From assembly GCA_964504715.1 (NCBI GenBank), contig CAZDEP010000006.1, positions 4,748 to 68,747 on the forward strand: a stretch of 64,000 nt of DNA, given 5' to 3'. The position numbers were made by a program, and so were the translations under genes. The notes below the pieces were generated by a model, which did not search any database, had not been told where the DNA came from, and saw only the letters and a program-made list of their open reading frames with translations. This DNA comes from an uncultured Candidatus Saccharibacteria bacterium (GTDB lineage Bacteria; Patescibacteriota; Doudnabacteria; UBA920). Of the stretch, positions 9,307-59,003 are shown in pieces; the first letter of the stretch is position 1; each line of letters starts with the position of its first letter.

Positions 9307-9915
9307 ATGCGTTATACAGGACCCAAAGCAAAAAAAGCCAGGCGATTTGGAATGGCATTCACCGCCAAAGACGCTAAGATCCTTCAAAAAAGGGGTTTTG
9401 CACCTGGGCAGCACGGCCAAAATAAAGCCAGAATTTCCGAATACGGCATGCAATTGCGCGAAAAGCAGAAAATGAAAATCAATTACGGCGTCCTGGAAAA
9501 GCAGTTCAGCAATTATTTTAAAAAAGCCTTAAGCCAGACCGGTGTAACAGGCGATAACTTGCTCAGGGCGCTTGAAATGCGTTTAGACAATGTCATCTAC
9601 AGGCTTGGGTTTGCCGAAAGCCGGGCTCAGGCCAGGCAATTGGTATCGCACGGATTTTTTACTGTCAATGCAAAAAAGGTTGATATTCCTTCCTTTCAAA
9701 CCAAAGTAGGCGATGTCATAAAATTCAAAGAGAACAAAAAGAAAAGCAAGTATGTGGAAGTTTTAAAAGAAAAGCTGAAAGGTATTCAGCCCGCAGAGTG
9801 GCTGGAGGTAGACAAGTCAGTCATGGTTGGGAAAGTGCTTACTTCACCTACGCCCGAAATGGTAGGAAACCAAATAAACACGCAATTGATTGTTGAACAT
9901 TATAGCCGCACCTAA
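9307..9915 (+). CDS. rpsD: 30S ribosomal protein S4
   Basis: MRYTGPKAKKARRFG ... LDNVIYRLGFAESRAQARQLVSHG. Confidence 0.95.
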   Translation: MRYTGPKAKKARRFGMAFTAKDAKILQKRGFAPGQHGQNKARISEYGMQLREKQKMKINYGVLEKQFSNYFKKALSQTGVTGDNLLRALEMRLDNVIYRLGFAESRAQARQLVSHGFFTVNAKKVDIPSFQTKVGDVIKFKENKKKSKYVEVLKEKLKGIQPAEWLEVDKSVMVGKVLTSPTPEMVGNQINTQLIVEHYSRT

Positions 9916-9981: not shown

Positions 9982-10920
9982 ATGGAAGCAATTCCTCTTC
10001 CAAACCGCGCTAAAATTGAAGATTTGGGCGGAAATAAGTACAAGCTAATTTTAGAACCGCTATATCCAGGATATGGCGTTACTGTTGGCAATGCGTTAAG
10101 AAGGGTTTTGTTGTCTTCCATGCCCGGATCTTCCGTCACTGCGGTTAAAATCAAGTACGTTGACCATGAATTTTCAACAATCCCCAATGTGAAGGAAGAT
10201 GTTATACAGCTTTTATTGAATTTAAAGCAGCTTAGGGTCAGGAGCTTTAGCACTGAGCCGGTCAGAATTCTCTTGAAGGCAAAAGGCGAAAAAGTTGTCA
10301 CTGCAGCCGATATAAAAGAAACCGATCAGGTTAAGGTCATAAGCAAAGATTTGCACATCGCAACTCTTGACAACAAAAATTCCGACTTTGAAATGGAATT
10401 GGTTGTTGAGCAGGGTAAAGGCTATTTGCCGGTAGAGCAAAGGGAAAATCATAAGCCGGAAATTGGCATGATTGCTTTAGACGCAGTATTTACCCCGGTT
10501 AAGTCGGTATTTTTCGATATTTCCAACGTACGCGTAGGCCAGCTTACAAACTTTGACAAATTGGAAGTAGTTATGGAAACCGACGGAAGCATAGACGGCA
10601 ATACCGCCATAAACATTGCAACCCATATTCTGGTTGACCATTTTTCCATGCTTTTTTCTGAACAGCCCGAAGGCGTTATCGAGAGACCCGAAGAAGCCGC
10701 TTTGCCCGGTGAAGGCGAAACAGCCGAAGTAGAAACGGTCCCAGGAGAAGACAATGAAATAACCGCTTCCACGCTTTCCACCCGCGCTAAGAACGCGCTT
10801 TCCAAAAACGGCATAAGCAGTATGAGCGCCTTAAGAGCATTAAGCAACGAGCAGATAGAGAATATTGAGGGCTTGGGCAAGAAAACCATTATGGAGATTA
10901 TTGAGTTTTTAGGCCGATAA
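9982..10920 (+). CDS. rpoA: DNA-directed RNA polymerase alpha subunit
   Basis: LEPLYPGYGVTVGNALRRVLLSSMPG plus a C-terminal alpha-CTD. Confidence 0.95.
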   Translation: MEAIPLPNRAKIEDLGGNKYKLILEPLYPGYGVTVGNALRRVLLSSMPGSSVTAVKIKYVDHEFSTIPNVKEDVIQLLLNLKQLRVRSFSTEPVRILLKAKGEKVVTAADIKETDQVKVISKDLHIATLDNKNSDFEMELVVEQGKGYLPVEQRENHKPEIGMIALDAVFTPVKSVFFDISNVRVGQLTNFDKLEVVMETDGSIDGNTAINIATHILVDHFSMLFSEQPEGVIERPEEAALPGEGETAEVETVPGEDNEITASTLSTRAKNALSKNGISSMSALRALSNEQIENIEGLGKKTIMEIIEFLGR

Positions 10921-10925
10921 AATTA

Positions 10926-10954
10926 TTGACAAAAGTTTACTCGGCAATTATGCT
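10926..10954 (+). promoter_or_regulatory. Sigma-70-type promoter upstream of rplQ
   Basis: TTGACA, a 17-nt spacer, then TATGCT. Confidence 0.4.
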
Positions 10955-10993
10955 CTATTTATTTAATTTTTTTAAATTTTGTTGAATTAAATT

Positions 10994-11338
10994 ATGCGTC
11001 ACAGAAAAAAGCCAAAAATAGGTAAAGGCAACGACCAAAAAAGGAAGCTTTTAAGAAGCCTTGCTTCTTCTTTGGTGCTGTACGAAAAAATAACTACGAC
11101 TTTAAAAAATGCCCGGGCGGCAAAATCCTACGCCGAGAAATTAATTACCCGCTCCAAAGAAAATAGCCTGCATAACCGAAGGATTTTAGCTTCAATGCTC
11201 AGCCCGATGGCCGCGAAAAAAGCCATTGAGGTCTTAGGCCCCAAGTACAAAGAGCGCAAAGGCGGGTATACCAGAATGGTAAAGTTAGTGCACCACCTGT
11301 CCGGAAATTCTAAGGTTTTACTGGAACTGGTGGAATAA
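10994..11338 (+). CDS. rplQ: 50S ribosomal protein L17
   Basis: MRHRKK ... LLRSLASSLVLYEKITTTLKNA. Confidence 0.9.
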   Translation: MRHRKKPKIGKGNDQKRKLLRSLASSLVLYEKITTTLKNARAAKSYAEKLITRSKENSLHNRRILASMLSPMAAKKAIEVLGPKYKERKGGYTRMVKLVHHLSGNSKVLLELVE

Positions 11339-16690: not shown

Positions 16691-17815
16691 ATGAAAATCG
16701 CCGTTGATTTAAGAAGTTTGCAAACCGGTTCGGTTTCCGGAGTGGAGAATTATACTTTGAATCTTATCGAGCGGCTTTTGGAAATGGACAAAGCTAATAC
16801 CTATGTGCTGTTTTATAATTCTTTCAGTCCGTTGGAACTAAGAGACTTGAATTTTGTAAATGTTAAAACCATTAGAACCACATACCCCAATAAAATTTTA
16901 AATATTTTTTTTAAGTTTAAAATCCTTAGCTTGGAAGACTTAATTGGGCCATTTGATGTGCTGTTCATGCCAAATTTAAACGTTATAAATATCAGCGAAA
17001 AGGCGAGGCTAGTGGTAACCGTCCATGACCTTTCTTTTATTAAATTCCCCGAATTTTACGATCTTAAAAGGCGGTTGTGGCATCATTTTTTAGGAGTGGG
17101 TAATTTATTTAAGCGGGCCGATTTACTGCTGGCGGTTTCTAAATACACCAAGGAGGATATGGAAAAAATTTTTCATTGCCCCGAAAGTAAAATTAAAGTA
17201 GTCTACCCAGGTGTAGACCAAGCGGTTTTTAACAGTAATATGCCACTGTATAAGTTACGAGCCCTCAGGAATAAGTACGATCTGCCTGGTGAGTTTTTTT
17301 TATTCTTGAACACCCTTGAACCGCGTAAAAATTTAATCAAGCTCGTTAAAGCTTTCGAATCGTTGAATTCCGGCACCCACTTGGTAATTGCCGGAAAGAA
17401 AGGCTGGAAGACCAGATCAATACTTAAAAAAATTGCCAATAGCCCCAAAAGAAAGCTAATCCGTTATTTAGGCTACTTTGACGAGGCGGATAAACCTGCG
17501 TTATTCAAAATGGCCAAAGCGCTTTTATACCCTTCGTACTATGAAGGCTTTGGCTTCCAAGCTTTGGAGGCAATGTCTGTCGGCACTCCCGTTTTGGCAA
17601 CCCAAGTTACTTCGTTGCCTGAAGTTGCGGGTGATGCGGCTTTGCTTATAAATCCGTATAATGAACAAGATTTGGCAGCAGCCATGAAAATCTTGGAAAC
17701 AGACGAAAAGCTAAGGGTGGGCCTAATTAACGGAGGGCTGCAAAGAGCAGGGGGCTTTACCTGGCAGAACAGCGCCCGTCAAGTATTGACTCATCTTCAA
17801 TCATTAATAAATTAA
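16691..17815 (+). CDS. GT4 family glycosyltransferase
   Basis: YEGFGFQALEAMSVGTPVLATQVTSLPEVAGDAALLINP. Confidence 0.8.
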   Translation: MKIAVDLRSLQTGSVSGVENYTLNLIERLLEMDKANTYVLFYNSFSPLELRDLNFVNVKTIRTTYPNKILNIFFKFKILSLEDLIGPFDVLFMPNLNVINISEKARLVVTVHDLSFIKFPEFYDLKRRLWHHFLGVGNLFKRADLLLAVSKYTKEDMEKIFHCPESKIKVVYPGVDQAVFNSNMPLYKLRALRNKYDLPGEFFLFLNTLEPRKNLIKLVKAFESLNSGTHLVIAGKKGWKTRSILKKIANSPKRKLIRYLGYFDEADKPALFKMAKALLYPSYYEGFGFQALEAMSVGTPVLATQVTSLPEVAGDAALLINPYNEQDLAAAMKILETDEKLRVGLINGGLQRAGGFTWQNSARQVLTHLQSLIN

Positions 17816-17816
17816 T

Positions 17817-18929
17817 ATGCGTATTGGCATAGATTTCAGAATGGCGGGTATAGAAAACGGCGGCCTGGGCAGGTATGTTTTTGAGCTGACACGGGCGCTT
17901 TTAGCGGCGGATGCGGTAAACGAGTATGTTTTATTTTGCCGAAATACCGAACAGGCTAAAACTTTATCGGGTTATAAAAACGTGCAGATTGCCAAAGCGG
18001 ACTATAGGCACTATTCTGTTTCAGAGCAGCTTTTTTTCCCGCGCATCCTTAATCGTTATAGATTAGACTTGGTCCATTTTCCAAATTTTAATGTGCCACT
18101 TTTATATAAGCGCCCGTTTATAGTTACCATCCATGATTTAATCCACCATAAAATCGGCGGGGTAAAAAAAACCAACTGGGCGCACTTTTGGGCCTACAAG
18201 AAAGTCATTGAACATGCTGCTAAAAATTCCAAATCCATAATCACGGTCTCCGAGTGTTCCAAACAGGACATTATTAATGAGCTAAAGGTTCTGCCAAGCA
18301 AGGTAAAGGTTATCTACGAGGGTATCTCTTTGCGCCCGCCGGTTGATGAAAATAAAGTCGCTCAAGCTAAGGCCAAGTACTTTCTTGAAAAACCTTATTT
18401 TATGTTTGTGGGTGTACTGCAGAGGAACAAAAATTTATCGGCCTTAGTGGAAGGTTTTGCCGACTTTCAAAAAAAATTAGGGAACAGCTTCCATTTATTA
18501 ATAGTGGGCAAAGCTGACCCGCATTACCCGGACATAAAAACCCAATGCCTATTGTCGCCGGCCGCGCAAGATTTGGTTTTCGTCGGCGCAGTGGACGATG
18601 AGGATCTAAAATCTTTGTATGCCGGGGCCCAAGGCTTTGCTTCCGCATCGGTTTTGGAAGGCTTTGGCCTGCCCGGACTTGAGGCTGCAGCTTTTGGCGT
18701 ACCGTTGGCTGTTTCCAATATCCCAGTATTCAATGAAATTTACGAAAACGCAGCCATATATTTTAACCCTAAAAATCCAGCTGAAATTTCCCAGTGCTTA
18801 AAGCTTTTGTCCATGGACGAAAAATACCACGCCCAAGTTTCTGAAAATGCGCGAAAAAGAGCTTTGTTTTTTAATTGGCAAAAATGCGCAGCGGAAACTT
18901 TGCTTGTTTATAAAAGTGTCATAAATTAA
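17817..18929 (+). CDS. GT4 family glycosyltransferase
   Basis: LEGFGLPGLEAAAFGVPLAVSNIPVFNEIYENAAIYFNP. Confidence 0.8.
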   Translation: MRIGIDFRMAGIENGGLGRYVFELTRALLAADAVNEYVLFCRNTEQAKTLSGYKNVQIAKADYRHYSVSEQLFFPRILNRYRLDLVHFPNFNVPLLYKRPFIVTIHDLIHHKIGGVKKTNWAHFWAYKKVIEHAAKNSKSIITVSECSKQDIINELKVLPSKVKVIYEGISLRPPVDENKVAQAKAKYFLEKPYFMFVGVLQRNKNLSALVEGFADFQKKLGNSFHLLIVGKADPHYPDIKTQCLLSPAAQDLVFVGAVDDEDLKSLYAGAQGFASASVLEGFGLPGLEAAAFGVPLAVSNIPVFNEIYENAAIYFNPKNPAEISQCLKLLSMDEKYHAQVSENARKRALFFNWQKCAAETLLVYKSVIN

Positions 18930-25695: not shown

Positions 25696-25771
25696 GGGGA
25701 CGTAGTTTAGTTGGTTAGAACGCCGGCCTAAAAAACCGGAAAGGCAGGTTCGAATCCTGTTGTCCCCGCCA
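25696..25771 (+). tRNA. tRNA, isotype unresolved (anticodon loop CUAAAAA; apparent anticodon AAA)
   Basis: Cloverleaf: acceptor GGGGACG pairs with TGTCCCC (one G-U pair), D-arm with GG, T-arm GCAGG-TTCGAAT-CCTGT, encoded CCA, short variable loop. The anticodon stem has a C-A mismatch and the loop is A-rich. Confidence 0.55.
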
Positions 25772-37054: not shown

Positions 37055-37169
37055 CTAATTTCAACAGATATATTTAAATCCCCCATAAATATGGGGGATT
37101 TTTGATATTCGATATATTTGACATTAAAAATAGTTTGTGCTATACTATAAAAAAGTTTTTAGGAAATAT

Positions 37170-38252
37170 ATGGGAATACTCGACACAATTATCCAGACTA
37201 AACAAGACGAAGCCTTAAGGACTTTTAATCCTGAAAGCATCATAGACGAAATCCTTTCCGCCTTAAAAGAACGCGAAAGGCAAATCCTTATGAAGCGCTA
37301 CGGCCTTAAAGGCAGCGAAATTAAAACTTTGGCTGCCATTGGTCTTGAACATGGCTTAACGCGTGAGCGCGTGAGGCAGATTGAAAAAGACCTAATCAAA
37401 AACCTGCGCAAAAATGGCCGAGCCAACACAGGGCTTTTGGCAGTGAAAGAAATGATGCTAAATACCATAAGCGAGCACGGTAAAATTATTGCGGAAGACA
37501 ATCTGCTTAAAACCTTGGGCGTTAAAAGCGAGCAGGAACGCAATTCTATTATTTTCCTTTTGCATTTGATAGAAGAAATTGACTTATACTTGCACGACAA
37601 TTACAAAAATTGCTGGTCTTCTGTGGTTTTTAACAAGCAAATTCTGCACGATTTCACCGGTGAAGCGCACCAGATTTTGGAACGCTTCGCAAAGCCAGTG
37701 GAAGAAAAGGAGTTTTTACAGCACTTTACGCAAACCGAATTTTACCAGCGCTATGCCAATGATTTTCCGCAAAAAGTCATATTGAATTTTTTGGATTTGG
37801 CCCACCGAGTGGAAAGGAACGTGTTTGGGCACTGGGGCCTGACTAATTGGAAGCAAATTGTCCCCAAAGATGTCGGTGATAAAGCTTATTTGATCTTAAA
37901 ACAGCACGGCAAGCCCGAACATTACTCCGTAATTACCGATATGATAAACAAAGCGGCTTTTGATTCGCGCACGGCCTACAAAGAAACTGTCCATAACGAA
38001 CTAATTAAAGATCAGCGGTTTATTTTAGTAGGGCGCGGTATTTACGCGCTTGCCGAATGGGGCTATAAATCGGGCGTAGTTTCCGATGTTATAAAGGAGA
38101 TATTAACTGAAAATGGGAAACCGCTTCCTAAGGATAAAATTATAGAAGAAGTCCTCAAGCGCAGGCAAGTTAAGAAAAATACCATTCTTGTAGGATTATC
38201 CAACAAAAAACTATTTAGGAAAGTAGAAAAAAACCTCTACGCCTTGGCTTAA
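37170..38252 (+). CDS. DNA-binding protein with an N-terminal sigma-70 region-4-like HTH and a C-terminal HARE-HTH domain
   Basis: N-terminus LSALKERERQILMKRYGL...KTLAAIGLEHGLTRERVRQIEKDLIKNLRK (region 4 consensus, no region 2). C-terminus YSVITDMINKAAF...RFILVGRGIYALAEWGY (HARE-HTH ending). RBS AGGAAA before the ATG at 37170. Confidence 0.6.
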   Translation: MGILDTIIQTKQDEALRTFNPESIIDEILSALKERERQILMKRYGLKGSEIKTLAAIGLEHGLTRERVRQIEKDLIKNLRKNGRANTGLLAVKEMMLNTISEHGKIIAEDNLLKTLGVKSEQERNSIIFLLHLIEEIDLYLHDNYKNCWSSVVFNKQILHDFTGEAHQILERFAKPVEEKEFLQHFTQTEFYQRYANDFPQKVILNFLDLAHRVERNVFGHWGLTNWKQIVPKDVGDKAYLILKQHGKPEHYSVITDMINKAAFDSRTAYKETVHNELIKDQRFILVGRGIYALAEWGYKSGVVSDVIKEILTENGKPLPKDKIIEEVLKRRQVKKNTILVGLSNKKLFRKVEKNLYALA

Positions 38253-38311: not shown

Positions 38312-39649
38312 ATGGGTAACTTCAATTCAATATTTCCAGATTTTCAAATAATGTTAGGTTATACCTACCGTTTTATTTTTGTATATTACGGGTGGGCGGT
38401 TTTTGTTATTGGGATTATGTATATGCTTTGGCGCTCGTATCTTATGGAAATCCAGCACCAATATGTGCATACCAATAAGTTCATTTTTTTCCAGATAAAA
38501 GTGCCTAAAGACAATTTGGTGAGCACGCTTGCGGTGGAAACCATATTTGCCCAGCTGCATTCGCTGCACGTCGGTAAGACTTTCACGGAAAAATACATAG
38601 AGGGACACGTACAGCTTTGGTATTCGCTGGAAATTATTAGCATGGGCGGCAAAGTTTCTTTTATTATCCAACTGCCTGAACGCATGCGGCACGTAGTGGA
38701 ATCGGCCTTTTATGCGCATTATCCGCAGGCAGAAATCACCGAAGTCAGCGATTACATGGAAAATTTCACTTATGATCCTGAAGATAAAGACAATCCTTAT
38801 GAAATATTCGGCACCGAATGGAAACTAAACGACAGCGAAGTAATCCCAATTAAAACCTATAAAGACTTTGAGCATCCGGCTGCGGAAGAAACGATTATAG
38901 ATCCTTTGGCCAATTTTTTTGAAGGGCTTTCCAAAATGGATCCCCACGAATTTTTTGGGGTACAAATTTTAATTTCGCCGAGGGCGGACGACGAATGGAA
39001 ACCTTTGGGCGACGCTAAAATTAAGGAGCTGATAGGCGAAGATGTCCCTCACACAGCCAGCTTTAAGAGTTTTCTTATGTCCCCGGCGGATAAATTTGCC
39101 AAATTCAGTTATAAAGAAACCCTGTTCGGCGGCCACGGGCATGCCGCGGGCCCTGAGAACAAGCCTAAAAACAACTGGATGAATATGACCGAAAGTGAAA
39201 AGGAGAGGGTATCCTTAATTGAAAAGAAAATCGGCAAACCCGGATACAAAACCAAAATAAGATTTTTGTATGTGGCGCCCAAGGACAAATTTGATGCCAC
39301 AAAAAAGTCAATCCTGACGGGCGCCTACCGCCCTTTGGGCAGCGTGATGACAAACAAAATCAGGCCGGATGTGGCCAACACATGGACTTCAGTAGATTAT
39401 GTTCTCTCAAAACCCCTCGAAAAGCCTTACTTGGAATGGCTGCTTAATTACAAAAAGCGAAACGTTTTTAAAGGCTATAAAGACCGTGACACCCACATTG
39501 GTTTGCCTATGTTCATTTTAAATATTGAAGAATTGGCTACCCTTTACCATTTCCCCATCACCACCAAAACTTCTACCGTTCCGAGTAATATTGAGCGCAC
39601 GGAAAGCAAAAAATCCCAGCCGCCCGTTAATTTGCCGATCCTTGAATGA
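38312..39649 (+). CDS. Hypothetical single-pass membrane protein (445 aa), partner of the downstream ATPase
   Basis: N-terminal TM helix FIFVYYGWAVFVIGIMYMLW followed by a roughly 400-aa soluble domain; no recognisable catalytic motif. Confidence 0.5.
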   Translation: MGNFNSIFPDFQIMLGYTYRFIFVYYGWAVFVIGIMYMLWRSYLMEIQHQYVHTNKFIFFQIKVPKDNLVSTLAVETIFAQLHSLHVGKTFTEKYIEGHVQLWYSLEIISMGGKVSFIIQLPERMRHVVESAFYAHYPQAEITEVSDYMENFTYDPEDKDNPYEIFGTEWKLNDSEVIPIKTYKDFEHPAAEETIIDPLANFFEGLSKMDPHEFFGVQILISPRADDEWKPLGDAKIKELIGEDVPHTASFKSFLMSPADKFAKFSYKETLFGGHGHAAGPENKPKNNWMNMTESEKERVSLIEKKIGKPGYKTKIRFLYVAPKDKFDATKKSILTGAYRPLGSVMTNKIRPDVANTWTSVDYVLSKPLEKPYLEWLLNYKKRNVFKGYKDRDTHIGLPMFILNIEELATLYHFPITTKTSTVPSNIERTESKKSQPPVNLPILE

Positions 39650-39753
39650 GCTTTGCATATCTCTACGAAATACTAAAACTCTTATATAATCATTGTTATT
39701 TAATTTATTTCGTATTTAGTATTTCGTCCCTTTAGTATTTAGTAGAAGAACCT

Positions 39754-41559
39754 ATGGATACCAAAGACCAAATAACCATATTTGCGCGTACCAACTTCCG
39801 GAACAAGGAAGTGCCTTTTGGCATAAAAACCGACGACCGCCGCAGGCATATGTACCTAATCGGTAAAACCGGCATGGGCAAAACCTCGTTAATGGAAAAC
39901 ATGGTCATCCAGGATATAAAAAATGGCCATGGTGTGTGCTTTATTGACCCGCACGGGGATTCTGTCCAAAGGATTTTAGATTCCGTACCCTCTTCCAGGG
40001 TAAATGACGTAATTTACTTTAACCCCGCGGACCTGCAATTTCCTATTGCCTTTAACATCCTCGAGGCCGTAGAAACCGAATATAAGCACTTGGTTGCTTC
40101 GGGCCTAATGGGCGTTTTTACGAAAATTTGGGCGAATGTGTGGTCTGCCAGGATGGAATACATTTTAAACAACACTGTGTTGGCGCTTTTGGAAAGCCCG
40201 GGCAATACGCTTTTGGGCATTACCCGTATGTATGTGGACAAAAAGTACCGAAAGAAAATTGTCGACAACGTAAAAGACCCGGTTGTTAAAACCTTTTGGA
40301 CCGACGAATACGCCAACTATAACGAAAAATACCGGACTGAGGCCATAGCCCCTATCCAAAACAAAGTTGGGCAATTTTTGTCTTCGGCCATAGTTAGGAA
40401 TATCGTAGGCCAGCCAAAAAGCACCATAGATTTGAGGGAGATAATGGACAATAAAAAAATCTTAATTGTCGATATTTCCAAAGGCAAGGTGGGTGAGGAC
40501 AATGCCGCCCTTTTGGGCGCCATGTTAATTACCAAACTGCAGCTGGCAGCCCTTTCGCGAGCCGACATACCCGAACGTGACCGCAAAGACTTCTATTTGT
40601 ACGTGGACGAGTTCCAAAATTTTGCCACCGACAGTTTTGCGACCATTTTAAGCGAGGCCAGAAAATACCGCCTTAACTTAATTATCGGCCACCAATACAT
40701 TGCCCAGCTGGAAAATGACAAAAATACCAAAGTCAGGGACGCAATTTTCGGTAACGTGGGCACTATGGTCATTTTTCGTATCGGCGCGGCGGATGCGGAA
40801 TTCCTGGAAACCGAATTCGATCCAATTTTTACGCCTAACGACCTCGTAAACTTGCCTAAATACAACATAATTCTGAAGCTTATGATAAATGGCGTGGCTT
40901 CGGACCCTTTTAGCGCCGTAACCTTGCCGCCGAACCCCGAGTTTATATCCGGCAATTTGGAAAAAGTCGTAAAAGTTTCGCGCGAACGTTACGCCAACCC
41001 CGTGGCTTTTGTAGAAGAAAAAATTGCCCGCTGGATGGATTCGGATTACCACAAAGAAGCGGCAATTTTGATAGGAAAAAATCTGGAAACCGAAGAGGAA
41101 AGCGAACAGGAAGGGGAGGGCGAAAGCAAAAATAACCAACCTGAAGTTGCGCCCCAGCCACCGCCAAAACCCCCCGCCCCGGTCTCACCGCCCGTCGTCC
41201 CCGAGCAAAATCGGCCCGAACAAAACAGGGATAAAACAGAATCTCAGCCGGCAAAGGCGCCCTCCAAACCCAAAGAGCAATTCAATCCGCAGCAAAAAAA
41301 GGACCACCAGAGGCCTTTTAGGGAAAAGGACCATGACCGCAGACCTCAAAACAAGCAGAAAAAAGAGCACCCAATTTGGCAAAAGGTTGCCGGGCTGGAA
41401 GCGGAAAAGGCCAAGGAACAATTGAAAGCCCTGGATAAAACTTTAGAGGACCTGGGTAAAAATTTAAGTTCGGATTCAGGCCCAGTCCAAAGCCCCGCTC
41501 TACCCCCTCCGCCCCAAAAGATAGTCCTGCGGCCCGGGGAATCTCATAGCTTAGAATGA
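39754..41559 (+). CDS. VirD4/TraD/TrwB-like (type IV coupling-protein-type) P-loop ATPase lacking a TM anchor, with a disordered Pro/Gln-rich tail
   Basis: Walker A YLIGKTGMGKTS then CFIDPHGD. Walker B and the sensor region: LYVDEFQNFAT ... SEARKYRLNLIIGHQYIAQL ... IFGNVGTMVIFRIG, which resembles the T4CP DEF...Q..Q signature. The roughly 150-aa C-terminal tail is rich in E/P/Q/K. Confidence 0.6.
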   Translation: MDTKDQITIFARTNFRNKEVPFGIKTDDRRRHMYLIGKTGMGKTSLMENMVIQDIKNGHGVCFIDPHGDSVQRILDSVPSSRVNDVIYFNPADLQFPIAFNILEAVETEYKHLVASGLMGVFTKIWANVWSARMEYILNNTVLALLESPGNTLLGITRMYVDKKYRKKIVDNVKDPVVKTFWTDEYANYNEKYRTEAIAPIQNKVGQFLSSAIVRNIVGQPKSTIDLREIMDNKKILIVDISKGKVGEDNAALLGAMLITKLQLAALSRADIPERDRKDFYLYVDEFQNFATDSFATILSEARKYRLNLIIGHQYIAQLENDKNTKVRDAIFGNVGTMVIFRIGAADAEFLETEFDPIFTPNDLVNLPKYNIILKLMINGVASDPFSAVTLPPNPEFISGNLEKVVKVSRERYANPVAFVEEKIARWMDSDYHKEAAILIGKNLETEEESEQEGEGESKNNQPEVAPQPPPKPPAPVSPPVVPEQNRPEQNRDKTESQPAKAPSKPKEQFNPQQKKDHQRPFREKDHDRRPQNKQKKEHPIWQKVAGLEAEKAKEQLKALDKTLEDLGKNLSSDSGPVQSPALPPPPQKIVLRPGESHSLE

Positions 41560-48069: not shown

Positions 48070-50100
48070 ATGGGAATGTTTCGAAAAAAAAAGACTTTTA
48101 AATTCAGGGCGAACCCCTACGCTGAATTCCATATCGTCTATGCTAAAGCACGAAAGGGATTCTGGACCGGTTTTAATTTTAGCCGGCAAAATTTTAAAAA
48201 AATTTGGCCCGAGCTTTCAGTTTTTCTTGCCGTGCTGGTTTTGGGCTGGGCGCTTCTGCAATCGAGCCGCTTGGCCGCAGTGACTTTGAGCATAAAAGAA
48301 AAAATTCTCATGGGCGGCAAAAGCGGGGCGGAAATGCTCAGACTGGCTAAATCCTCCCTGGAAAAGCGGGACTTGGAATCTGCGGGTGTGGAACTCGGTG
48401 ATGCTGTGGAAAATTTCAAGCAGAGCCAGCAGGAACTTTTTGCCGTGAGGCAAAATTTTATGGGCTTAAGCAGACTTCTGCCTCAAGAACGGGCGGCCGC
48501 CAAACTCTTGGAAGGTTCCTTAAACTTGGCCGAAGCGGGCCAAAGCGGGCTAGTATTAGCCAAGCTCACCTCCAACCTCTCCTTCGGCGCACAGGGTTTA
48601 AGTGCGGAGGCTGATATAAATGAAATTTACAGCCAGCTTGTGGTCTTTGAATCTAAAATTAGCCGGGCATTTCAAGCTTTAAGCGAAATCGACCCCGGCA
48701 AGCTACCCCCAAATGAACGGGACGATTTTGAAAAAAACTTCACGAAAGTTAAAGCGGTGGCCGATTCGGCCGCAACCTTAAAATCGCTGGGCAAACTCGG
48801 GCAAATATTTTTGACCGGTAAAAAAAATGTCCTGCTATTGTTTGAAAACAACAACGAGCTCAGGCCCACGGGCGGATTTATGGGCTCTTTTGGCGGCGCA
48901 GTTTTAAATAACGGCAAACTCGAGTCGCTTAAAATTAGCAGTATTTACGACTTGGACGGCCAGTTAGCTGAAAAAATTGTCCCGCCATCCCCAATAATCG
49001 CGGTTAATGACCGTTGGTTTTTGCGAGACTCCAACTGGTTCACCTCGTTTCCCGAATCCGCAGCGCTAATTAGCGCGTTTTATGAAAAAGAAGGGGGCGA
49101 AACGCCGGACCTTATAATTGCCCTTACGCCGCAAACACTGGAAAAAATTATTGAAGTAACCGGTCCGCTTAAAACACCCGGGGGACTAACCATTAACGAA
49201 GAAAATCTGCTGGAACAAATCCAAATTCTTACAACCAGCACAGCCGAAGACCCGTCCAATGAACCTAAAAAAATATTGGGACAGCTTTTAACCGAATTGC
49301 TCCAAAAAATCAGCCAGTTAGATGCCCCGCAAAAAACCCGCGTACTTAAAGCATTGAGCGAAAGCCTTTCGGAAAAAAGCCTGTTGGCCTTTTCCCGCAT
49401 CCCGGAAGCGGCGGATATTTTCAGCCAATTTAACTGGGCAGGACAAATTTTGCCCACTGACAGGGATTTTTTGCTTATGTCTTTTGCCAACCTCGGCGGG
49501 ACAAAAACCGACCTTAGTGTGCAGCGCAGCGCAGCTTTAAACAGTTATGTTAACCGCGGCGGCGAAATTCAAAACACGCTTACCATAAGCCTTAAAAACC
49601 TTATGCCGGAAATGCCATTTTCGGAAAATAAAACTTTCGTAAGGGTGTATGTGCCGGAAGGCAGCAAACTTTTATCTTCCGAAGGCTTCGACAAGCTGGA
49701 ATTGCCGGCGCCTGATAATGAGGATTATAAAAGCAGCAGCGCCATTCGTGACTGGGAAAAAACCTCGGTTAAAGACGTGGTTACGGGTACGGTTATTGGA
49801 GAAGAGTCCGGCAAAACTTTTTTTGGAAACTGGGTAATTTTAAAAGCGGGGGAAAGCCGTCAAATAAAAATTGTTTACCAACTGCCCTGGAGGTTAAAAA
49901 AACTCGACCGCTTAAGCCTAATGCTTCAAAAACAGCCCGGCGTCACTTGGGAAGAATTCGGCTATACCTTAAGCATTCCGGGGCGCCAAGCAATTTGGGC
50001 AACTGCTGCGGATTTTACGCAAAAAAACGGCATTTGGAGCCTAAAAAACCATTTGAACAAAGACGTTTTTTCTGGTATGGTATTGATGCAAGATAATTGA
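48070..50100 (+). CDS. DUF4012-like membrane-anchored protein (676 aa)
   Basis: N-terminal TM then a large extracytoplasmic domain with the ENNNELRPTGGFMGSFG motif (recalled as DUF4012-like; unverified); embedded in the dcw cluster. Confidence 0.45.
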   Translation: MGMFRKKKTFKFRANPYAEFHIVYAKARKGFWTGFNFSRQNFKKIWPELSVFLAVLVLGWALLQSSRLAAVTLSIKEKILMGGKSGAEMLRLAKSSLEKRDLESAGVELGDAVENFKQSQQELFAVRQNFMGLSRLLPQERAAAKLLEGSLNLAEAGQSGLVLAKLTSNLSFGAQGLSAEADINEIYSQLVVFESKISRAFQALSEIDPGKLPPNERDDFEKNFTKVKAVADSAATLKSLGKLGQIFLTGKKNVLLLFENNNELRPTGGFMGSFGGAVLNNGKLESLKISSIYDLDGQLAEKIVPPSPIIAVNDRWFLRDSNWFTSFPESAALISAFYEKEGGETPDLIIALTPQTLEKIIEVTGPLKTPGGLTINEENLLEQIQILTTSTAEDPSNEPKKILGQLLTELLQKISQLDAPQKTRVLKALSESLSEKSLLAFSRIPEAADIFSQFNWAGQILPTDRDFLLMSFANLGGTKTDLSVQRSAALNSYVNRGGEIQNTLTISLKNLMPEMPFSENKTFVRVYVPEGSKLLSSEGFDKLELPAPDNEDYKSSSAIRDWEKTSVKDVVTGTVIGEESGKTFFGNWVILKAGESRQIKIVYQLPWRLKKLDRLSLMLQKQPGVTWEEFGYTLSIPGRQAIWATAADFTQKNGIWSLKNHLNKDVFSGMVLMQDN

Positions 50101-57218: not shown

Positions 57219-59003
57219 ATGAACCAAGACATAATCAATTACATAAAAGAAGGCAGGCAGCATAACCTGGCGGATATTGAAATTAAGCAAAATTTGCTGA
57301 ACGTCGGCTGGGATGCCGGGACCGTGGAGGAAAGCTTTGCGCATTTAAAGGCGCAGGAAAACCGTTCGCCCGTCAACAGGGACGAAGACATAAAACCGGA
57401 AAGCCCCGCGGGCAGCGGCCCAAACTTGAATTTCCATTTAAGCCAGCATATGCAGGAGCAAAAACCGCAAGCCAATGTGCAGCCCGCTGCAGCGTTGCCG
57501 GCCATAGGTTTGGGCGGGAGCCCGCAAAAAAGCGGCAGCCGAATGGCAAAAATTTTGGGCGGGGTCATTGCGGCCGTAATTTTGCTTGCCGGCGCGGGCG
57601 CGGCGGCCTATTTTTATGTTTACCAGAACCCTGAAAGGGTGTGGAAAAAATTCAGCTCAACGGATCAGGACAAAACCTTCAGCGGAAACCTGAAAATTTC
57701 TTACAAAGACACGGGCGCTATAACCCCCGAAGATTCTTTGGGTATGACGCTTAAAGATATCAGCTTGGATTTAACCAGCAAGGTCTATAGCGACATAAAA
57801 GCGGACAGCCCGCAAAGCAGCGCGGAAATGTCCTACTCTTTTTCCAGCGGAAACACGAGTTTTTCCACCGGTTTTGAATACCGCCTGATTGGCAAAAAAC
57901 TCTATATGAACGTCGGCAGCAACCCGTTTTTGGTAAATATGTTTGCCCAGCTCGGAAAGGGGAAGCAAATAAATTGGATAGTTTTGGACATTGCGGAGCT
58001 TGAAAAAAAGGCGGATCAGGAAAACTCGGAAAAAGCCAACCAACTGAGGCAGGCGTTTAACGACCAGCTGTTTGGCGAGATCCAAAAAACCTGGAACGAC
58101 GCCAGTTTTGTAAAAATGGACAAATACCTCGGCCGTGAAAAAGTTAACAACAAAAACACTTTGCATTTTGCCAATACGCTCGACAAACAGGCCATTAAAA
58201 ACACTTTTGGTGAAATTGTCGACCGTTTGGTAAAAGCCGCCAAAGATTCCGGGGAAAACGTGGACGACTCAACAGTTAATACGGTAAAAACCACTGTAAA
58301 TGCCCTGGTAGACAAGCTCGAAGTCAAGCAGTTTGAAACATGGATAGGGGTAACCGATTTTAAAATATATAAAGTCAGCATAAAAACCAGCGCGCCTTCG
58401 GTCGTTTCGACCATAAAAACCGCATTCCAAGGGCCGCAGGAATCTTCGCGCGACGCAAAACGTCTGTCGGACGTCAGGCAAATGGCTTCGGCTCTGGAAC
58501 TATACTTTAACGATAAAAACCGATACCCGGCGTCAAAAGACGGCAAGCCGGTGGGATTATCCCCATCTTACATTGGCGAATTTCCCAATTCGCCCACGCC
58601 CGCGGACGGAAACTGCACCGACTATTACAACACTTACTGGTATGAAACCTCGACCGATGGCTCCACATACCAACTGACTTTCTGCCTAGGCAAAAATACC
58701 GGCGGTTACACTTCGGGCATTATGAAGCTCTCCCCCCGGGGGATCGAGGAAGTTGCGGAATGCCCCAGTACGCCCGAAAATTGCTACAAGAATGGCAAGC
58801 CTGGGTCCAATGCAGAAGTTGATGTCGCGGATATAGAGAAAAGCATAAAAGAAAAAGTGGAAAGCATTAGTTTTGACGCTGCCTTCGAAATTACGGCTGA
58901 CTACAGCGACTACGGAGTCAAAAAAGAAGTTACCGCGCCTGAAGGGGCTTTTGACTTAATCGAACTTTTAGACAGCAGCGGTGAACAACTGCTTTCAAAC
59001 TAA
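57219..59003 (+). CDS. Large membrane protein with a C-terminal type-IV-pilin-like globular domain
   Basis: TM helix (ILGGVIAAVILLAGAGAAAYF). C-terminal RDAKRLSDVRQMASALELYFNDKNRYP ... C...C core matches the pilin/pseudopilin head motif. Confidence 0.55.
   Translation: MNQDIINYIKEGRQHNLADIEIKQNLLNVGWDAGTVEESFAHLKAQENRSPVNRDEDIKPESPAGSGPNLNFHLSQHMQEQKPQANVQPAAALPAIGLGGSPQKSGSRMAKILGGVIAAVILLAGAGAAAYFYVYQNPERVWKKFSSTDQDKTFSGNLKISYKDTGAITPEDSLGMTLKDISLDLTSKVYSDIKADSPQSSAEMSYSFSSGNTSFSTGFEYRLIGKKLYMNVGSNPFLVNMFAQLGKGKQINWIVLDIAELEKKADQENSEKANQLRQAFNDQLFGEIQKTWNDASFVKMDKYLGREKVNNKNTLHFANTLDKQAIKNTFGEIVDRLVKAAKDSGENVDDSTVNTVKTTVNALVDKLEVKQFETWIGVTDFKIYKVSIKTSAPSVVSTIKTAFQGPQESSRDAKRLSDVRQMASALELYFNDKNRYPASKDGKPVGLSPSYIGEFPNSPTPADGNCTDYYNTYWYETSTDGSTYQLTFCLGKNTGGYTSGIMKLSPRGIEEVAECPSTPENCYKNGKPGSNAEVDVADIEKSIKEKVESISFDAAFEITADYSDYGVKKEVTAPEGAFDLIELLDSSGEQLLSN

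What the first reader, a model, noticed from the sequence alone, without database searches (positions are those of the whole stretch)
38312..41559. Split coupling-protein-like module: a single-pass membrane protein plus a soluble VirD4/TraD-type ATPase with a long Pro/Gln-rich tail, in a housekeeping neighbourhood
The 601-aa protein has the T4CP/FtsK/HerA-superfamily hallmarks in T4CP order, as listed under its feature: a Walker A box followed by an xDPxGD motif, then Walker B and the Q/H-rich sensor block. It lacks the N-terminal transmembrane domain that anchors canonical coupling proteins. Its last roughly 150 aa form a low-complexity acidic/Pro/Gln tail (PQPPPKPPAPVSPPVVPEQNRPEQNR...). This is reminiscent of the relaxosome-binding tails of TraD.

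The gene just upstream encodes a 445-aa protein with one N-terminal TM helix and no recognisable domains, which is a plausible detached membrane anchor.

The pair sits between secDF and trxA/dacA/mraY. No relaxase, VirB4 or other conjugation genes are visible, and it follows the HTH protein above. That argues against a conjugative element. It is more consistent with a chromosomal, possibly lineage-specific, DNA or protein translocation system, for example DNA uptake or export across the envelope, which would matter for an organism with minimal nucleotide biosynthesis.
Basis: partly seen in the sequence, partly recalled or inferred. Interest (0 to 1): 0.7.

Follow-up and report, generated by a model that had tools for sequence, protein, structure and literature searches.

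The report
Split long-form type IV coupling ATPase
The two genes are the two halves of one long type IV coupling ATPase: a membrane-anchored domain folded like the front half of VirB4, and a soluble VirD4-like motor. With an upstream DNA-binding gene they form a chromosomal unit kept across Patescibacteria, not a mobile element.

Summary
ORFs 38312-39649 (445 aa, one TM helix) and 39754-41559 (601 aa) exist as described. The second has Walker A/B, IDPHGD and GHQY motifs, no TM segment and a ~160-aa Pro/Gln/acidic tail.

The two genes are halves of one protein:
- Fused DUF8128-T4CP proteins exist (P0397, a Priestia plasmid gene, probably S. epibionticum SEML1_0293).
- The N-domains of 812-819-aa T4CPs in actinomycete plasmids, one beside VirB4, are homologous to DUF8128 (hhalign 94.5%).

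A sigma-70-region-4 + HARE-HTH gene (37170-38252) precedes DUF8128 in 71/73 related loci. The ATPase follows in 64/73.

The 64-kb window holds only housekeeping genes. The module is ancient and chromosomal.

Orphan VirD4 homologues in Patescibacteria were already reported in 2025. The split, the VirB4-like N-domain and the HTH linkage were not in the papers I found.

Function is inferred: substrate receptor/motor of the chromosomal T4SS, or an autonomous DNA translocase. The apparent orthologue in S. epibionticum is dispensable in Tn-seq.

The parts
37076..37101 (+). Terminator-like hairpin after secF (11-bp stem, T-run). It marks the upstream boundary of the unit.
   Evidence: Pattern scan and the sequence itself. 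Consensus match only; not shown to function.
37118..37146 (+). Promoter-like site: TTGACA, 17 nt, TG-n-TATACT (11 of 12 matches, extended -10). An AGGA ribosome-binding site at 37161-37164 lies ahead of the ATG at 37170.
   Evidence: Consensus match only.
37170..38252 (+). First gene: a 360-aa DNA-binding protein with sigma-70 region 4 at the N-terminus and a HARE-HTH winged helix towards the C-terminus. It has no sigma region 2.
   Evidence: Pfam Sigma70_r4 1.8e-11 and HARE-HTH 2.9e-11. It lies directly upstream of DUF8128 in 71 of 73 loci with enough flank. SEML1_0294 of S. epibionticum has the same architecture and position and is essential in Tn-seq.
38312..39649 (+). Second gene: DUF8128 protein, 445 aa. 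An N-terminal TM helix is followed by a cytoplasmic alpha/beta domain with a VirB4-N-terminal-domain-like fold. It ends in the conserved ELATLYHFP...PPxNLP motif.
38372..38428 (+). Predicted transmembrane helix of DUF8128 (residues ~21-39).
   Evidence: Kyte-Doolittle 19-residue maximum of 2.02 at residue 21. It lies inside the long helix 9-54 of the model.
39754..41058 (+). Third gene, core (residues 1-435): soluble VirD4/TrwB-type nucleotide-binding domain. Walker A is at 39862-39885 and Walker B at 40594-40611.
   Evidence: TrwB_AAD_bind 58.8 bits, TraG-D_C 34.9, T4SS-DNA_transf 25.3 and DUF87 39.8, all above gathering cut-offs. Best PDB sequence hits are TrwB and DotL. The core is nearly invariant among homologues.
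41059..41559 (+). Third gene, disordered Pro/Gln/acidic tail (residues 436-601) plus stop codon. It holds two conserved short motifs: KKEHPIW (41359-41379) and the C-terminal VLRPGESHSLE (about 41524-41556).
   Evidence: In alignment A3 the tail varies in length and sequence, but P540 and W542 are invariant and the C-terminal vLxPGESHxx motif is conserved. ABY1-type relatives lack NPIW; two of the four end in a similar acidic ...GEL+EG-E...F motif.

Best explanation
Genes 38312-39649 and 39754-41559 encode the N- and C-terminal halves of a single long-form type IV coupling protein (T4CP) that has been split into two polypeptides.

- The first half (DUF8128) inserts in the membrane through one N-terminal helix. 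It exposes to the cytoplasm an alpha/beta domain folded like the N-terminal domain of VirB4.
- The second half is a soluble VirD4/TrwB-type ATPase. By analogy it should assemble into a ring.
- Its long disordered tail carries two conserved short motifs that probably bind adaptors or substrates.
- DUF8128 is inferred to tether the ATPase to the membrane. By analogy with VirB4's N-domain, it may also dock it onto a VirB3/VirB6/VirB8-type platform.
- The pair is probably co-transcribed with an upstream sigma-region-4/HARE-HTH DNA-binding gene from its own promoter.

The module is an old, vertically inherited chromosomal feature of Patescibacteria, not a mobile element. Its most likely job is substrate recruitment and energising for the chromosomal MPF-FATA-like type IV secretion system encoded elsewhere in these genomes.

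Shown here: identity of the parts, the split/fusion relation, the fold, conservation and synteny.
Inferred: physical interaction, ring formation, coupling to the T4SS, and the nature of the substrate (DNA or protein).
For: ATPase family:
- T4CP Pfam families are all above their cut-offs, and no VirB4 family (AAA_10, CagE_TrbE_VirB, TraC_F_IV, P-loop_TraG) appears at E<=1.
- NCBIfam gives TraD/VirD4-like models.
- The best PDB sequence hits are TrwB and DotL.

Partner fold:
- The AF2 model is confident, with pLDDT 88.4.
- The top 14 Foldseek hits are all TrwK chains or R388 complex entries that contain TrwK.

The two genes are one unit:
- P0397 (724 aa) aligns with DUF8128 residues 86-445 over its residues 21-308. 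It aligns with ATPase residues 2-414 over its residues 313-720 at 50% identity.
- A Priestia plasmid ORF runs from TM + DUF8128 (hhalign 99.4%, E 8.5e-22) straight into the Walker A region.
- Precomputed Pfam shows PF26449 and PF10412 in the same proteins.
- S. epibionticum SEML1_0293 is 921 aa with its ATPase domain starting near residue 400, and it lies directly downstream of a Sigma70_r4 + HARE-HTH gene.

Link to real conjugation systems:
- The 812-819-aa T4CPs of three Embleya/Streptomyces plasmids have a DUF8128-homologous N-domain (hhalign 94.5%, E 7.4e-8, 320 columns).
- In the annotated Embleya locus the T4CP sits next to VirB4, TrbL-like and PrgI genes and a replication-relaxation gene.

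Conservation:
- HTH lies upstream in 71/73 loci and the T4CP downstream in 64/73. This includes ABY1-type loci whose outer flanks differ.
- The ATPase core is 60-80% identical across the class.

Not mobile:
- The ORFs scanned across the window are all housekeeping and GC is normal.
- Nothing was found in viral contigs.

Literature:
- VirD4 homologues were found in 2,918 of 3,035 Patescibacteria genomes, with only 148 of 5,713 near virB4.
- T4CPs that lack a TMD and pair with a membrane protein are a recognised subclass.
Against: - No T4SS gene lies in the window, and the literature finds these T4CPs almost never next to virB4. Coupling to the T4SS is therefore inference.
- In S. epibionticum the T4SS genes are essential but the apparent orthologue SEML1_0293 is not. 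That fits a substrate-specific accessory role, but equally fits a function unrelated to the T4SS.
- Relaxases are rare in the phylum, so a classical DNA substrate is not evident.
- In Paceibacteria-type loci the ATPase is not within 10 kb of HTH-DUF8128.
- The ATPase structure prediction failed (pLDDT 48). The all-alpha domain and the closeness to VirD4 versus the VirB4 C-domain rest on sequence profiles only.
- P0397 appears to lack the TM helix.
- The N-terminal ~400 residues of SEML1_0293 were not compared with DUF8128, so its status as fused orthologue rests on architecture and gene order.
- No interaction between the two products was tested.
Confidence: 0.6

Rival explanations
1. A T4SS-independent DNA translocase. 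The membrane-tethered ring pumps DNA on its own or with an unidentified channel. The multi-winged-helix HTH protein acts as its DNA-recognition subunit, much as the FtsK gamma domain or Streptomyces TraB does. The purpose could be DNA export, DNA import or chromosome handling at division.
For: - The module is almost never near virB4.
- It is tightly linked to a DNA-binding protein in 71/73 loci and apparently in Saccharimonadia too.
- Neighbours are repeatedly cell-envelope and division genes: mraY/murD/ftsW here, murC/murB/divIC in ABY1-type loci, an MltG-like gene (assigned by reading its translation) in Paceibacteria-type loci.
- Relaxases are rare in the phylum.
Against: - S. epibionticum has a canonical, essential FtsK with 4TM, alpha, beta and gamma domains.
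- Competence there depends on ComEC.
- The HTH orthologue is essential while the ATPase is not, so the two do not share one indispensable function.
- No channel component is visible in the operon.
- Homologous long T4CPs in actinomycete plasmids sit inside T4SS loci.
Confidence: 0.22
2. A second, split VirB4-type ATPase: an assembly or pilus-biogenesis motor rather than a coupling protein. DUF8128 would be the VirB4 N-domain and the downstream gene the VirB4 C-domain.
For: - The N-to-C gene order reproduces the VirB4 domain order.
- The DUF8128 fold matches the VirB4 N-domain.
- The combined core size of about 880 aa is VirB4-like.
- Patescibacteria VirB4 genes often have a separate TrsD-like N-domain gene next to them.
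Against: - The ATPase hits T4CP profiles only. AAA_10, P-loop_TraG and TraC_F_IV, which the Embleya and Bacillus VirB4s hit strongly, are absent at E<=1.
- The best PDB sequence hits are TrwB and DotL.
- DUF8128 is not TrsD-like by sequence: hhalign 0.2% and no NCBIfam hit.
- The apparent orthologue is non-essential in S. epibionticum, whereas its T4SS locus is reported essential.
- In the annotated Embleya locus the DUF8128-bearing protein coexists with a separate VirB4.
Confidence: 0.08
3. A decaying remnant of an integrated conjugative element, or a defence-island ATPase (Mad8/HerA-like) that sits among housekeeping genes by chance.
For: - The closest non-CPR relatives are on plasmids.
- PADLOC gives mad8 at 2.2e-15 and weak HerA hits for the ATPase, and MzaA for the HTH region 4.
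Against: - Gene order and flanks are the same in 44/44 close loci, and the core triad is kept where flanks differ.
- The ATPase core is 60-80% identical across the class, with full-length intact ORFs.
- There is no integrase, relaxase, VirB4 or other mad gene among the ORFs scanned and no tRNA beside the module.
- GC is normal and viral contigs gave no hits.
- The PADLOC matches cover only the generic P-loop core or sigma region 4.
Confidence: 0.03

Closest known systems
SEML1_0294 / SEML1_0293 of Candidatus Southlakia epibionticum ML1 (Saccharimonadia; Wang et al. 2023, PMC10633639, supplementary tables)
   Same: The gene order matches: a Sigma70_r4 + HARE-HTH protein directly upstream of a protein with the same TrwB_AAD_bind / TraG-D_C / DUF87 signature. 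Both sit in a chromosomal housekeeping context.
   Different: There the N-terminal ~400 residues and the ATPase are one 921-aa polypeptide, whereas here they are two genes. Tn-seq shows the HTH gene essential and the T4CP non-essential. I did not have the sequences, so orthology and the DUF8128 nature of its N-terminus rest on domain architecture and synteny.
T4CPs lacking a transmembrane domain that pair with a membrane protein (TraJ/TraI of pIP501), and the TraG-TraJ pairs of H-type plasmids (review PMC7434980)
   Same: A soluble VirD4-type ATPase whose membrane attachment is supplied in trans by the product of an adjacent gene.
   Different: The known partners are described as small membrane proteins or ~200-residue polytopic proteins. 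Here the partner is 445 aa with a large folded cytoplasmic VirB4-N-domain-like module. The pair is chromosomal, phylum-wide and not linked to a relaxase or T4SS locus.
Long-form T4CPs of monoderm conjugative plasmids (Embleya sp. NBC_00896 WP_331738717, 812 aa; homologous 819- and 814-aa ORFs in Embleya sp. NBC_00888 and Streptomyces sp. BHT-5-2; possibly Bacillus thuringiensis pBMB28 ADY24938, 925 aa)
   Same: Same domain order: TM/N-domain homologous to DUF8128 (hhalign 94.5%, E 7.4e-8, including the ...PELAxLxHLP...PPxxiP end), then a T4CP ATPase 32-33% identical to the window protein.
   Different: These are single polypeptides. The annotated Embleya copy lies inside a bona fide conjugation locus with VirB4, TrbL-like, PrgI, a replication-relaxation protein and NlpC/P60. 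For the Bacillus protein the N-domain similarity is not significant.
VirB4/TrwK of plasmid R388 (PDB 7o42, 8rtd)
   Different: Sequence identity is 8%. The associated ATPase is VirD4-like, not VirB4-like, by profiles. DUF8128 shows no detectable sequence relation to TrsD, the known free-standing VirB4-N-like protein.
Orphan VirD4 homologues of Patescibacteria (Quinonero-Coronel et al. 2025, PMC12102498)
   Same: The window ATPase belongs to this already reported set: 5,713 homologues in 2,918 of 3,035 genomes, rarely near virB4, with exaptation suggested.
   Different: In the parts of that paper I read and searched (VirD4, T4CP, coupling protein, TraG, relaxase), there is no mention of the DUF8128 partner, the split or fused states, the VirB4-like fold of the N-domain, or the linkage to the HARE-HTH gene.

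Membership tests
Type IV coupling protein (VirD4/TrwB/TraD) | P-loop nucleotide-binding domain with Walker A and B, matching T4CP profiles above curated thresholds | tested here: met
   TrwB_AAD_bind 58.8 bits (cut-off 20.5), TraG-D_C 34.9 (22) and T4SS-DNA_transf 25.3 (20.1). TraD/VirD4-like NCBIfam hits fall below the equivalog cut-offs. TrwB and DotL are the best PDB sequence hits.
Type IV coupling protein (VirD4/TrwB/TraD) | All-alpha domain inserted in the nucleotide-binding domain | tested here: inconclusive
   The TrwB_AAD_bind alignment spans residues 25-344. The AF2 model shows helices over ~102-232 between Walker A and B, but its pLDDT is only 48, so this is not reliable.
Type IV coupling protein (VirD4/TrwB/TraD) | N-terminal transmembrane domain on the same polypeptide | tested here: not met
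   The ATPase has no hydrophobic segment (KD maximum 1.34). A TM helix is present on the upstream DUF8128 product (KD 2.02). This matches the recognised 'T4CP lacking TMD' subclass.
Type IV coupling protein (VirD4/TrwB/TraD) | Genetic linkage to a relaxase and/or a VirB4-containing T4SS locus | tested here: not met
   None was found among the larger ORFs scanned across the 64-kb window or among the called genes around the module. Flanks of the related loci were only compared with the window's own housekeeping proteins. Whether a T4SS exists elsewhere in this genome could not be checked.
Type IV coupling protein (VirD4/TrwB/TraD) | Recruits substrates to a T4SS and is needed for their transfer | not testable with these tools
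   Needs genetics or biochemistry. The only data are from Tn-seq: the apparent orthologue SEML1_0293 is non-essential.
DUF8128 (Pfam PF26449) | Match to the family profile | tested here: met
   The precomputed hit for the identical protein is 'faint'. Most close homologues carry an unmarked PF26449.1 hit. The local Pfam copy returned no PF26449 hit even for P0012, which carries the precomputed hit, so it seems to lack the model.
VirB4 (CagE/TrbE/TraC) | N-terminal domain fold | tested here: met
VirB4 (CagE/TrbE/TraC) | C-terminal ATPase matching VirB4 profiles (AAA_10, P-loop_TraG, TraC_F_IV, CagE_TrbE_VirB) | tested here: not met
   None is listed at E<=1 for the window ATPase. True VirB4s from Embleya and B. 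thuringiensis plasmids hit them at 1e-11 to 7e-71.
TrsD/TraD family (free-standing VirB4-N-like protein of pGO1-type systems) | Sequence similarity to TrsD | tested here: not met
   hhalign of the DUF8128 profile against pGO1 TrsD gives probability 0.2%. There are no NCBIfam hits at E<=1. The test has low power because the template is a single sequence.
FtsK/SpoIIIE DNA translocase | FtsK_SpoIIIE motor domain, 4TM N-domain and gamma winged-helix domain | tested here: not met
   FtsK_SpoIIIE is not among the Pfam hits at E<=1, and there are no TM segments. A canonical FtsK exists separately in S. epibionticum.
MADS defence system (Mad8) | Mad8-like ATPase together with the other mad genes | tested here: not met
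   The mad8 profile hits at 2.2e-15, but the DUF8128 protein has no PADLOC hit and the HTH protein matches only MzaA. All other ORFs scanned in the window are housekeeping by Pfam.

The most novel reading that the evidence does not exclude
The sigma4/HARE-HTH, DUF8128 and T4CP triad is a self-contained, Patescibacteria-wide DNA-handling machine that works without the VirB4 secretion system. The multi-winged-helix protein would select DNA. The membrane-tethered ring would pump it, for example towards or from the host cell. In addition, DUF8128-bearing long T4CPs would be surviving intermediates showing that VirD4-type coupling proteins arose from a VirB4-like protein by keeping its N-domain.
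Probability: 0.18. Interest if true: 0.75.

Novelty: new variant of a known kind. Interest (0 to 1): 0.5.

Why it matters
Patescibacteria make up a large share of bacterial diversity. They depend on host cells and carry an essential but poorly understood type IV secretion system. Nearly every genome also has VirD4-like genes of unknown role, located far from that system.

This analysis adds three things:
- One of these genes is half of a two-part protein.
- Its other half looks like the membrane-docking N-domain of VirB4.
- The pair travels with a DNA-binding protein whose counterpart is essential in the one genetically tractable species.

This yields concrete hypotheses and constructs to test in S. 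epibionticum: what the N-domain docks to, what the tail motifs bind, and whether DNA or protein is moved.

It also assigns a fold and a context to a Pfam domain of unknown function. It points to a structural link between the VirB4 and VirD4 ATPase lineages, which bears on how conjugation machines evolved.

Tried and rejected
1. AlphaFold model of the ATPase core. The alignment of 32 sequences was all about 80% or more identical to the query. The model had pLDDT 48.3 and pTM 0.53, too poor for a fold search, so none was run.
2. Foldseek against afdb50. The library was not available.
3. Direct hhalign of the DUF8128 profile against pGO1 TrsD and TrsE (VirB4). No significant match.
4. hhalign of the ATPase profile against single TrsE and TrsK sequences. 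Both were weak (72% and 21%), which says little with single-sequence templates.
5. PDB sequence search with the DUF8128 profile. No hits.
6. Search for the ATPase near DUF8128 in Paceibacteria-type loci, by tblastn and by an HMM on six-frame ORFs. Absent within 10 kb.
7. Representative-library search for DUF8128-ATPase fusions. None was seen among the 150 best of 2,444 clusters. Fusions turned up only through plasmid tblastn and the Priestia query.
8. Viral contigs. No relatives.
9. FtsK-replacement idea. Set aside because S. epibionticum keeps a canonical essential FtsK.
10. Defence-system idea. PADLOC hits are limited to generic cores.
11. Literature searches for PF26449 and DUF8128. Nothing found.
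12. B. thuringiensis pBMB28 long T4CP N-domain against DUF8128. Not significant.

Full report
**What is in the sequence**

The 601-aa protein has these features:
- Walker A is GKTGMGKT (residues 37-44), followed by IDPHGD (64-69).
- Walker B is YLYVDEFQNF (281-290), followed by GHQYIAQL (312-319).
- All of these are invariant in 19-32 homologues.
- It has no hydrophobic segment; the Kyte-Doolittle 19-residue maximum is 1.34.
- Its last ~165 residues are a Pro/Gln/acidic low-complexity tail.

The 445-aa protein has one hydrophobic segment at about residues 21-39 (KD 2.02).

The neighbours are secD, secF and an HTH gene upstream. Convergent trxA, then dacA, mraY, an amidohydrolase, murD and ftsW lie downstream.

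The rest of the window is housekeeping wherever I scanned it. It holds glycosyltransferases, AlaRS, RpoA, MurC/B/G, SecA, MurJ and LepA. No VirB4, relaxase or integrase appeared. GC content is flat.

**The ATPase**

Pfam places it in the coupling-protein families, all above their gathering cut-offs:
- TrwB_AAD_bind 58.8 bits
- TraG-D_C 34.9 bits
- T4SS-DNA_transf 25.3 bits
- DUF87 39.8 bits

No VirB4 family (AAA_10, P-loop_TraG, TraC_F_IV, CagE_TrbE_VirB) appears even at E<=1. Genuine VirB4s from two plasmids hit those models strongly.

NCBIfam gives TraD/VirD4-like models, all below the equivalog cut-offs. The best solved-structure relatives by sequence are TrwB and DotL.

An AlphaFold model of the core failed (pLDDT 48). 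The presence of an all-alpha domain is therefore not settled.

**The partner**

Homologues carry Pfam PF26449, which is DUF8128. The family is large: 2,444 clusters at 50% identity in the representative library, typically 400-650 aa for full-length members.

AlphaFold with a 56-sequence alignment gave a confident model (pLDDT 88.4, pTM 0.83). It has a long N-terminal helix (9-54) containing the TM segment, then an alpha/beta domain over residues 57-411.

No P-loop ATPase ranks high, and DUF8128 has no Walker motif. The match must therefore be to the non-ATPase N-terminal domain of VirB4. This step is inferred, because the tools did not return aligned residue ranges.

DUF8128 is not detectably TrsD-like. 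TrsD is the known free-standing VirB4-N-like protein. hhalign gives 0.2% and there is no NCBIfam hit.

**The two genes are one protein cut in two**

1. P0397 is a 724-aa protein in a CPR-like housekeeping context.
   - Its residues 21-308 align with DUF8128 residues 86-445. That alignment ends in the shared PPxNLP motif.
   - Four residues later, its residues 313-720 align with ATPase residues 2-414 at 50% identity.
   - The junction coincides with the gene boundary in the window.
2. In Priestia megaterium plasmid pFDU301A one reading frame encodes a TM helix and a DUF8128 domain. hhalign gives 99.4%, E 8.5e-22, over 358 columns.
   - The frame then runs straight into the Walker A region.
   - That gene is interrupted further on by two non-coding inserts.
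3. Precomputed Pfam annotations show PF26449 with PF10412 and PF01935 in single proteins.
4. The supplementary tables of Wang et al. 2023 list S. epibionticum SEML1_0293 as 921 aa, with TrwB_AAD_bind at residues 402-719.
   - I did not have its sequence, so the DUF8128 nature of its N-terminus is inferred from architecture.
5. The N-terminal ~400 residues of the 812-819-aa T4CPs of three Embleya/Streptomyces plasmids are homologous to DUF8128 over the whole domain. hhalign gives 94.5%, E 7.4e-8, over 320 columns.
   - In the one locus with annotation (Embleya NBC_00896), the T4CP sits beside VirB4, TrbL-like and PrgI genes, a replication-relaxation gene and NlpC/P60.

DUF8128 is thus the N-domain of a long-form T4CP that also occurs in real monoderm conjugation systems. 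In the fused forms the domain is linked by a few residues to an ATP-using domain, so it must be cytoplasmic.

**Conservation and context**

I recovered 80 related loci from species-representative genomes, all apparently Patescibacteria. Some carry generic or wrong labels.
- In loci 45% or more identical to the window DUF8128, the HTH gene lies directly upstream in 44/44 and the T4CP directly downstream in 44/44.
- In the more distant loci the figures are 27/29 and 20/29.

ABY1/Falkowbacteria-type loci keep HTH-DUF8128-T4CP in a different outer context: murC-murB upstream, and DUF1361, GT2, divIC and dacA downstream.

Paceibacteria-type loci keep LeuRS-HTH-DUF8128 followed by an MltG-like gene, an MnmA-like gene and AlaRS, without the ATPase within 10 kb. 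LeuRS was checked by Pfam. The other three names come from reading the translations.

In S. epibionticum the gene upstream of SEML1_0293 is SEML1_0294. It has the same Sigma70_r4 + HARE-HTH architecture as window gene 37170-38252.

Within the window, the signals fit a three-gene transcription unit:
- A hairpin with a T-run follows secF (37076-37101).
- A near-consensus extended -10 promoter sits at 37118-37146.
- There are no terminator-like sites in the two short intergenic gaps of 59 and 104 bp.

These are consensus matches only.

No relatives occur in viral contigs. The module is an old chromosomal feature, not an integrated element.

**What is already known**

Quinonero-Coronel et al. 2025 (PMC12102498) reported the following:
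- 5,713 VirD4-type homologues occur in 2,918 of 3,035 Patescibacteria genomes.
- Only 148 of them are near virB4.
- Relaxases are rare in the phylum.
- The t4cp of S. epibionticum is not essential, so exaptation cannot be excluded.

A 2020 review (PMC7434980) recognises a subclass of T4CPs lacking a TMD that pair with small membrane proteins, such as TraJ/TraI of pIP501.

I found no paper mentioning DUF8128 or PF26449. In the parts of the 2025 paper that I read and searched, there is no mention of the split, the VirB4-like N-domain or the HARE-HTH linkage.

**How it most likely works**

Shown here:
- The parts and the fold of the partner.
- The split/fusion relation.
- Conservation of the operon.

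Inferred:
- DUF8128 anchors the soluble ATPase to the membrane through its TM helix.
- Like VirB4's N-domain in the R388 structure (own knowledge), it docks the motor onto VirB3/VirB6/VirB8-type membrane components.
- The ATPase forms a ring.
- The disordered tail carries two conserved short motifs, KKEHPIW and the C-terminal VLxPGESHxx. These bind adaptors or substrates, as the tails of TraD and DotL do (own knowledge).

Tn-seq in S. epibionticum shows the T4SS essential, the HTH gene essential and SEML1_0293 dispensable. This fits a T4CP needed only for a particular substrate. It also means the HTH protein has a wider role, perhaps in transcription.

I rate the structural and evolutionary statement at about 0.85-0.9 and the T4SS-coupling function at about 0.45. 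The overall confidence given is 0.6.

**Rivals**

- An autonomous DNA translocase guided by the HTH protein remains possible (0.22).
  - For it: these T4CPs are rarely near virB4, the DNA-binding partner is conserved, and the neighbours are cell-envelope and division genes.
  - Against it: S. epibionticum has a canonical essential FtsK, competence there depends on ComEC, and homologous long T4CPs sit in T4SS loci.
- A split VirB4 paralogue is unlikely because of the profile results and the coexistence with a separate VirB4 in the Embleya plasmid (0.08).
- A mobile-element remnant or a defence ATPase (PADLOC mad8 2.2e-15) is contradicted by the conservation and context (0.03).

**Verdict**

The module is best filed as a new variant of a known kind. 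It is a T4CP without its own TMD, paired with a large VirB4-N-domain-like membrane partner and an HTH gene. It is conserved across Patescibacteria. Interest is moderate, at 0.5.

Noticed in passing
window 25696-25771 (+): ARAGORN calls a tRNA-Phe with anticodon AAA. The sequence shows the anticodon arm CCGGC / CUAAAAA / ACCGG with a C-A mismatch closing the loop. As far as I know, bacterial tRNA-Phe normally has GAA, so A34 here is unusual.
   Followed up: partly
L083 (Priestia megaterium pFDU301A, NZ_CP045273.1) locus 9372-9600 and 10083-11000: The fused DUF8128-T4CP gene is interrupted in frame by two non-coding inserts. The second falls right after the Walker B 'FLYVDE' and contains two copies of a repeated element. 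A group II intron reverse transcriptase ORF lies nearby at 16716-18740 (-). These may be ORF-less introns or other mobile RNA elements.
   Followed up: partly
window 37170-38252 (+); SEML1_0294 in S. epibionticum: A Sigma70_r4 + HARE-HTH protein with no sigma region 2 is conserved across several Patescibacteria lineages. Its S. epibionticum counterpart is essential in Tn-seq. Its own function (transcription factor, RNA polymerase accessory or DNA adaptor) is unknown.
   Followed up: partly
S. epibionticum SEML1_0142 (literature table): A second long T4CP-like paralogue is 1,019 aa, annotated as a TraM-recognition-domain protein, with its P-loop domain at residues 381-800. It is essential, unlike SEML1_0293. 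Whether this window's genome has such a paralogue could not be checked.
   Followed up: no
L076:3974-6805 (+): A Paceibacteria-type leucyl-tRNA synthetase (943 aa) carries a NUDIX domain at residues 379-496, inserted after the editing domain.
   Followed up: no
window 5896-7647 (+) and 57219-59003 (+): Two large ORFs of 583 and 594 aa have no Pfam match at E<=0.001.
   Followed up: no
window 39754-41559 (+): The PADLOC profile for mad8 of the MADS defence system matches the ATPase at 2.2e-15 and 55 bits, about as well as TrwB_AAD_bind does. Mad8 may itself be a T4CP-like ATPase.
   Followed up: no
window 48070-50100 (+): A 676-aa DUF4012 protein sits between ftsW and murJ inside the cell-wall gene cluster.
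   Followed up: no
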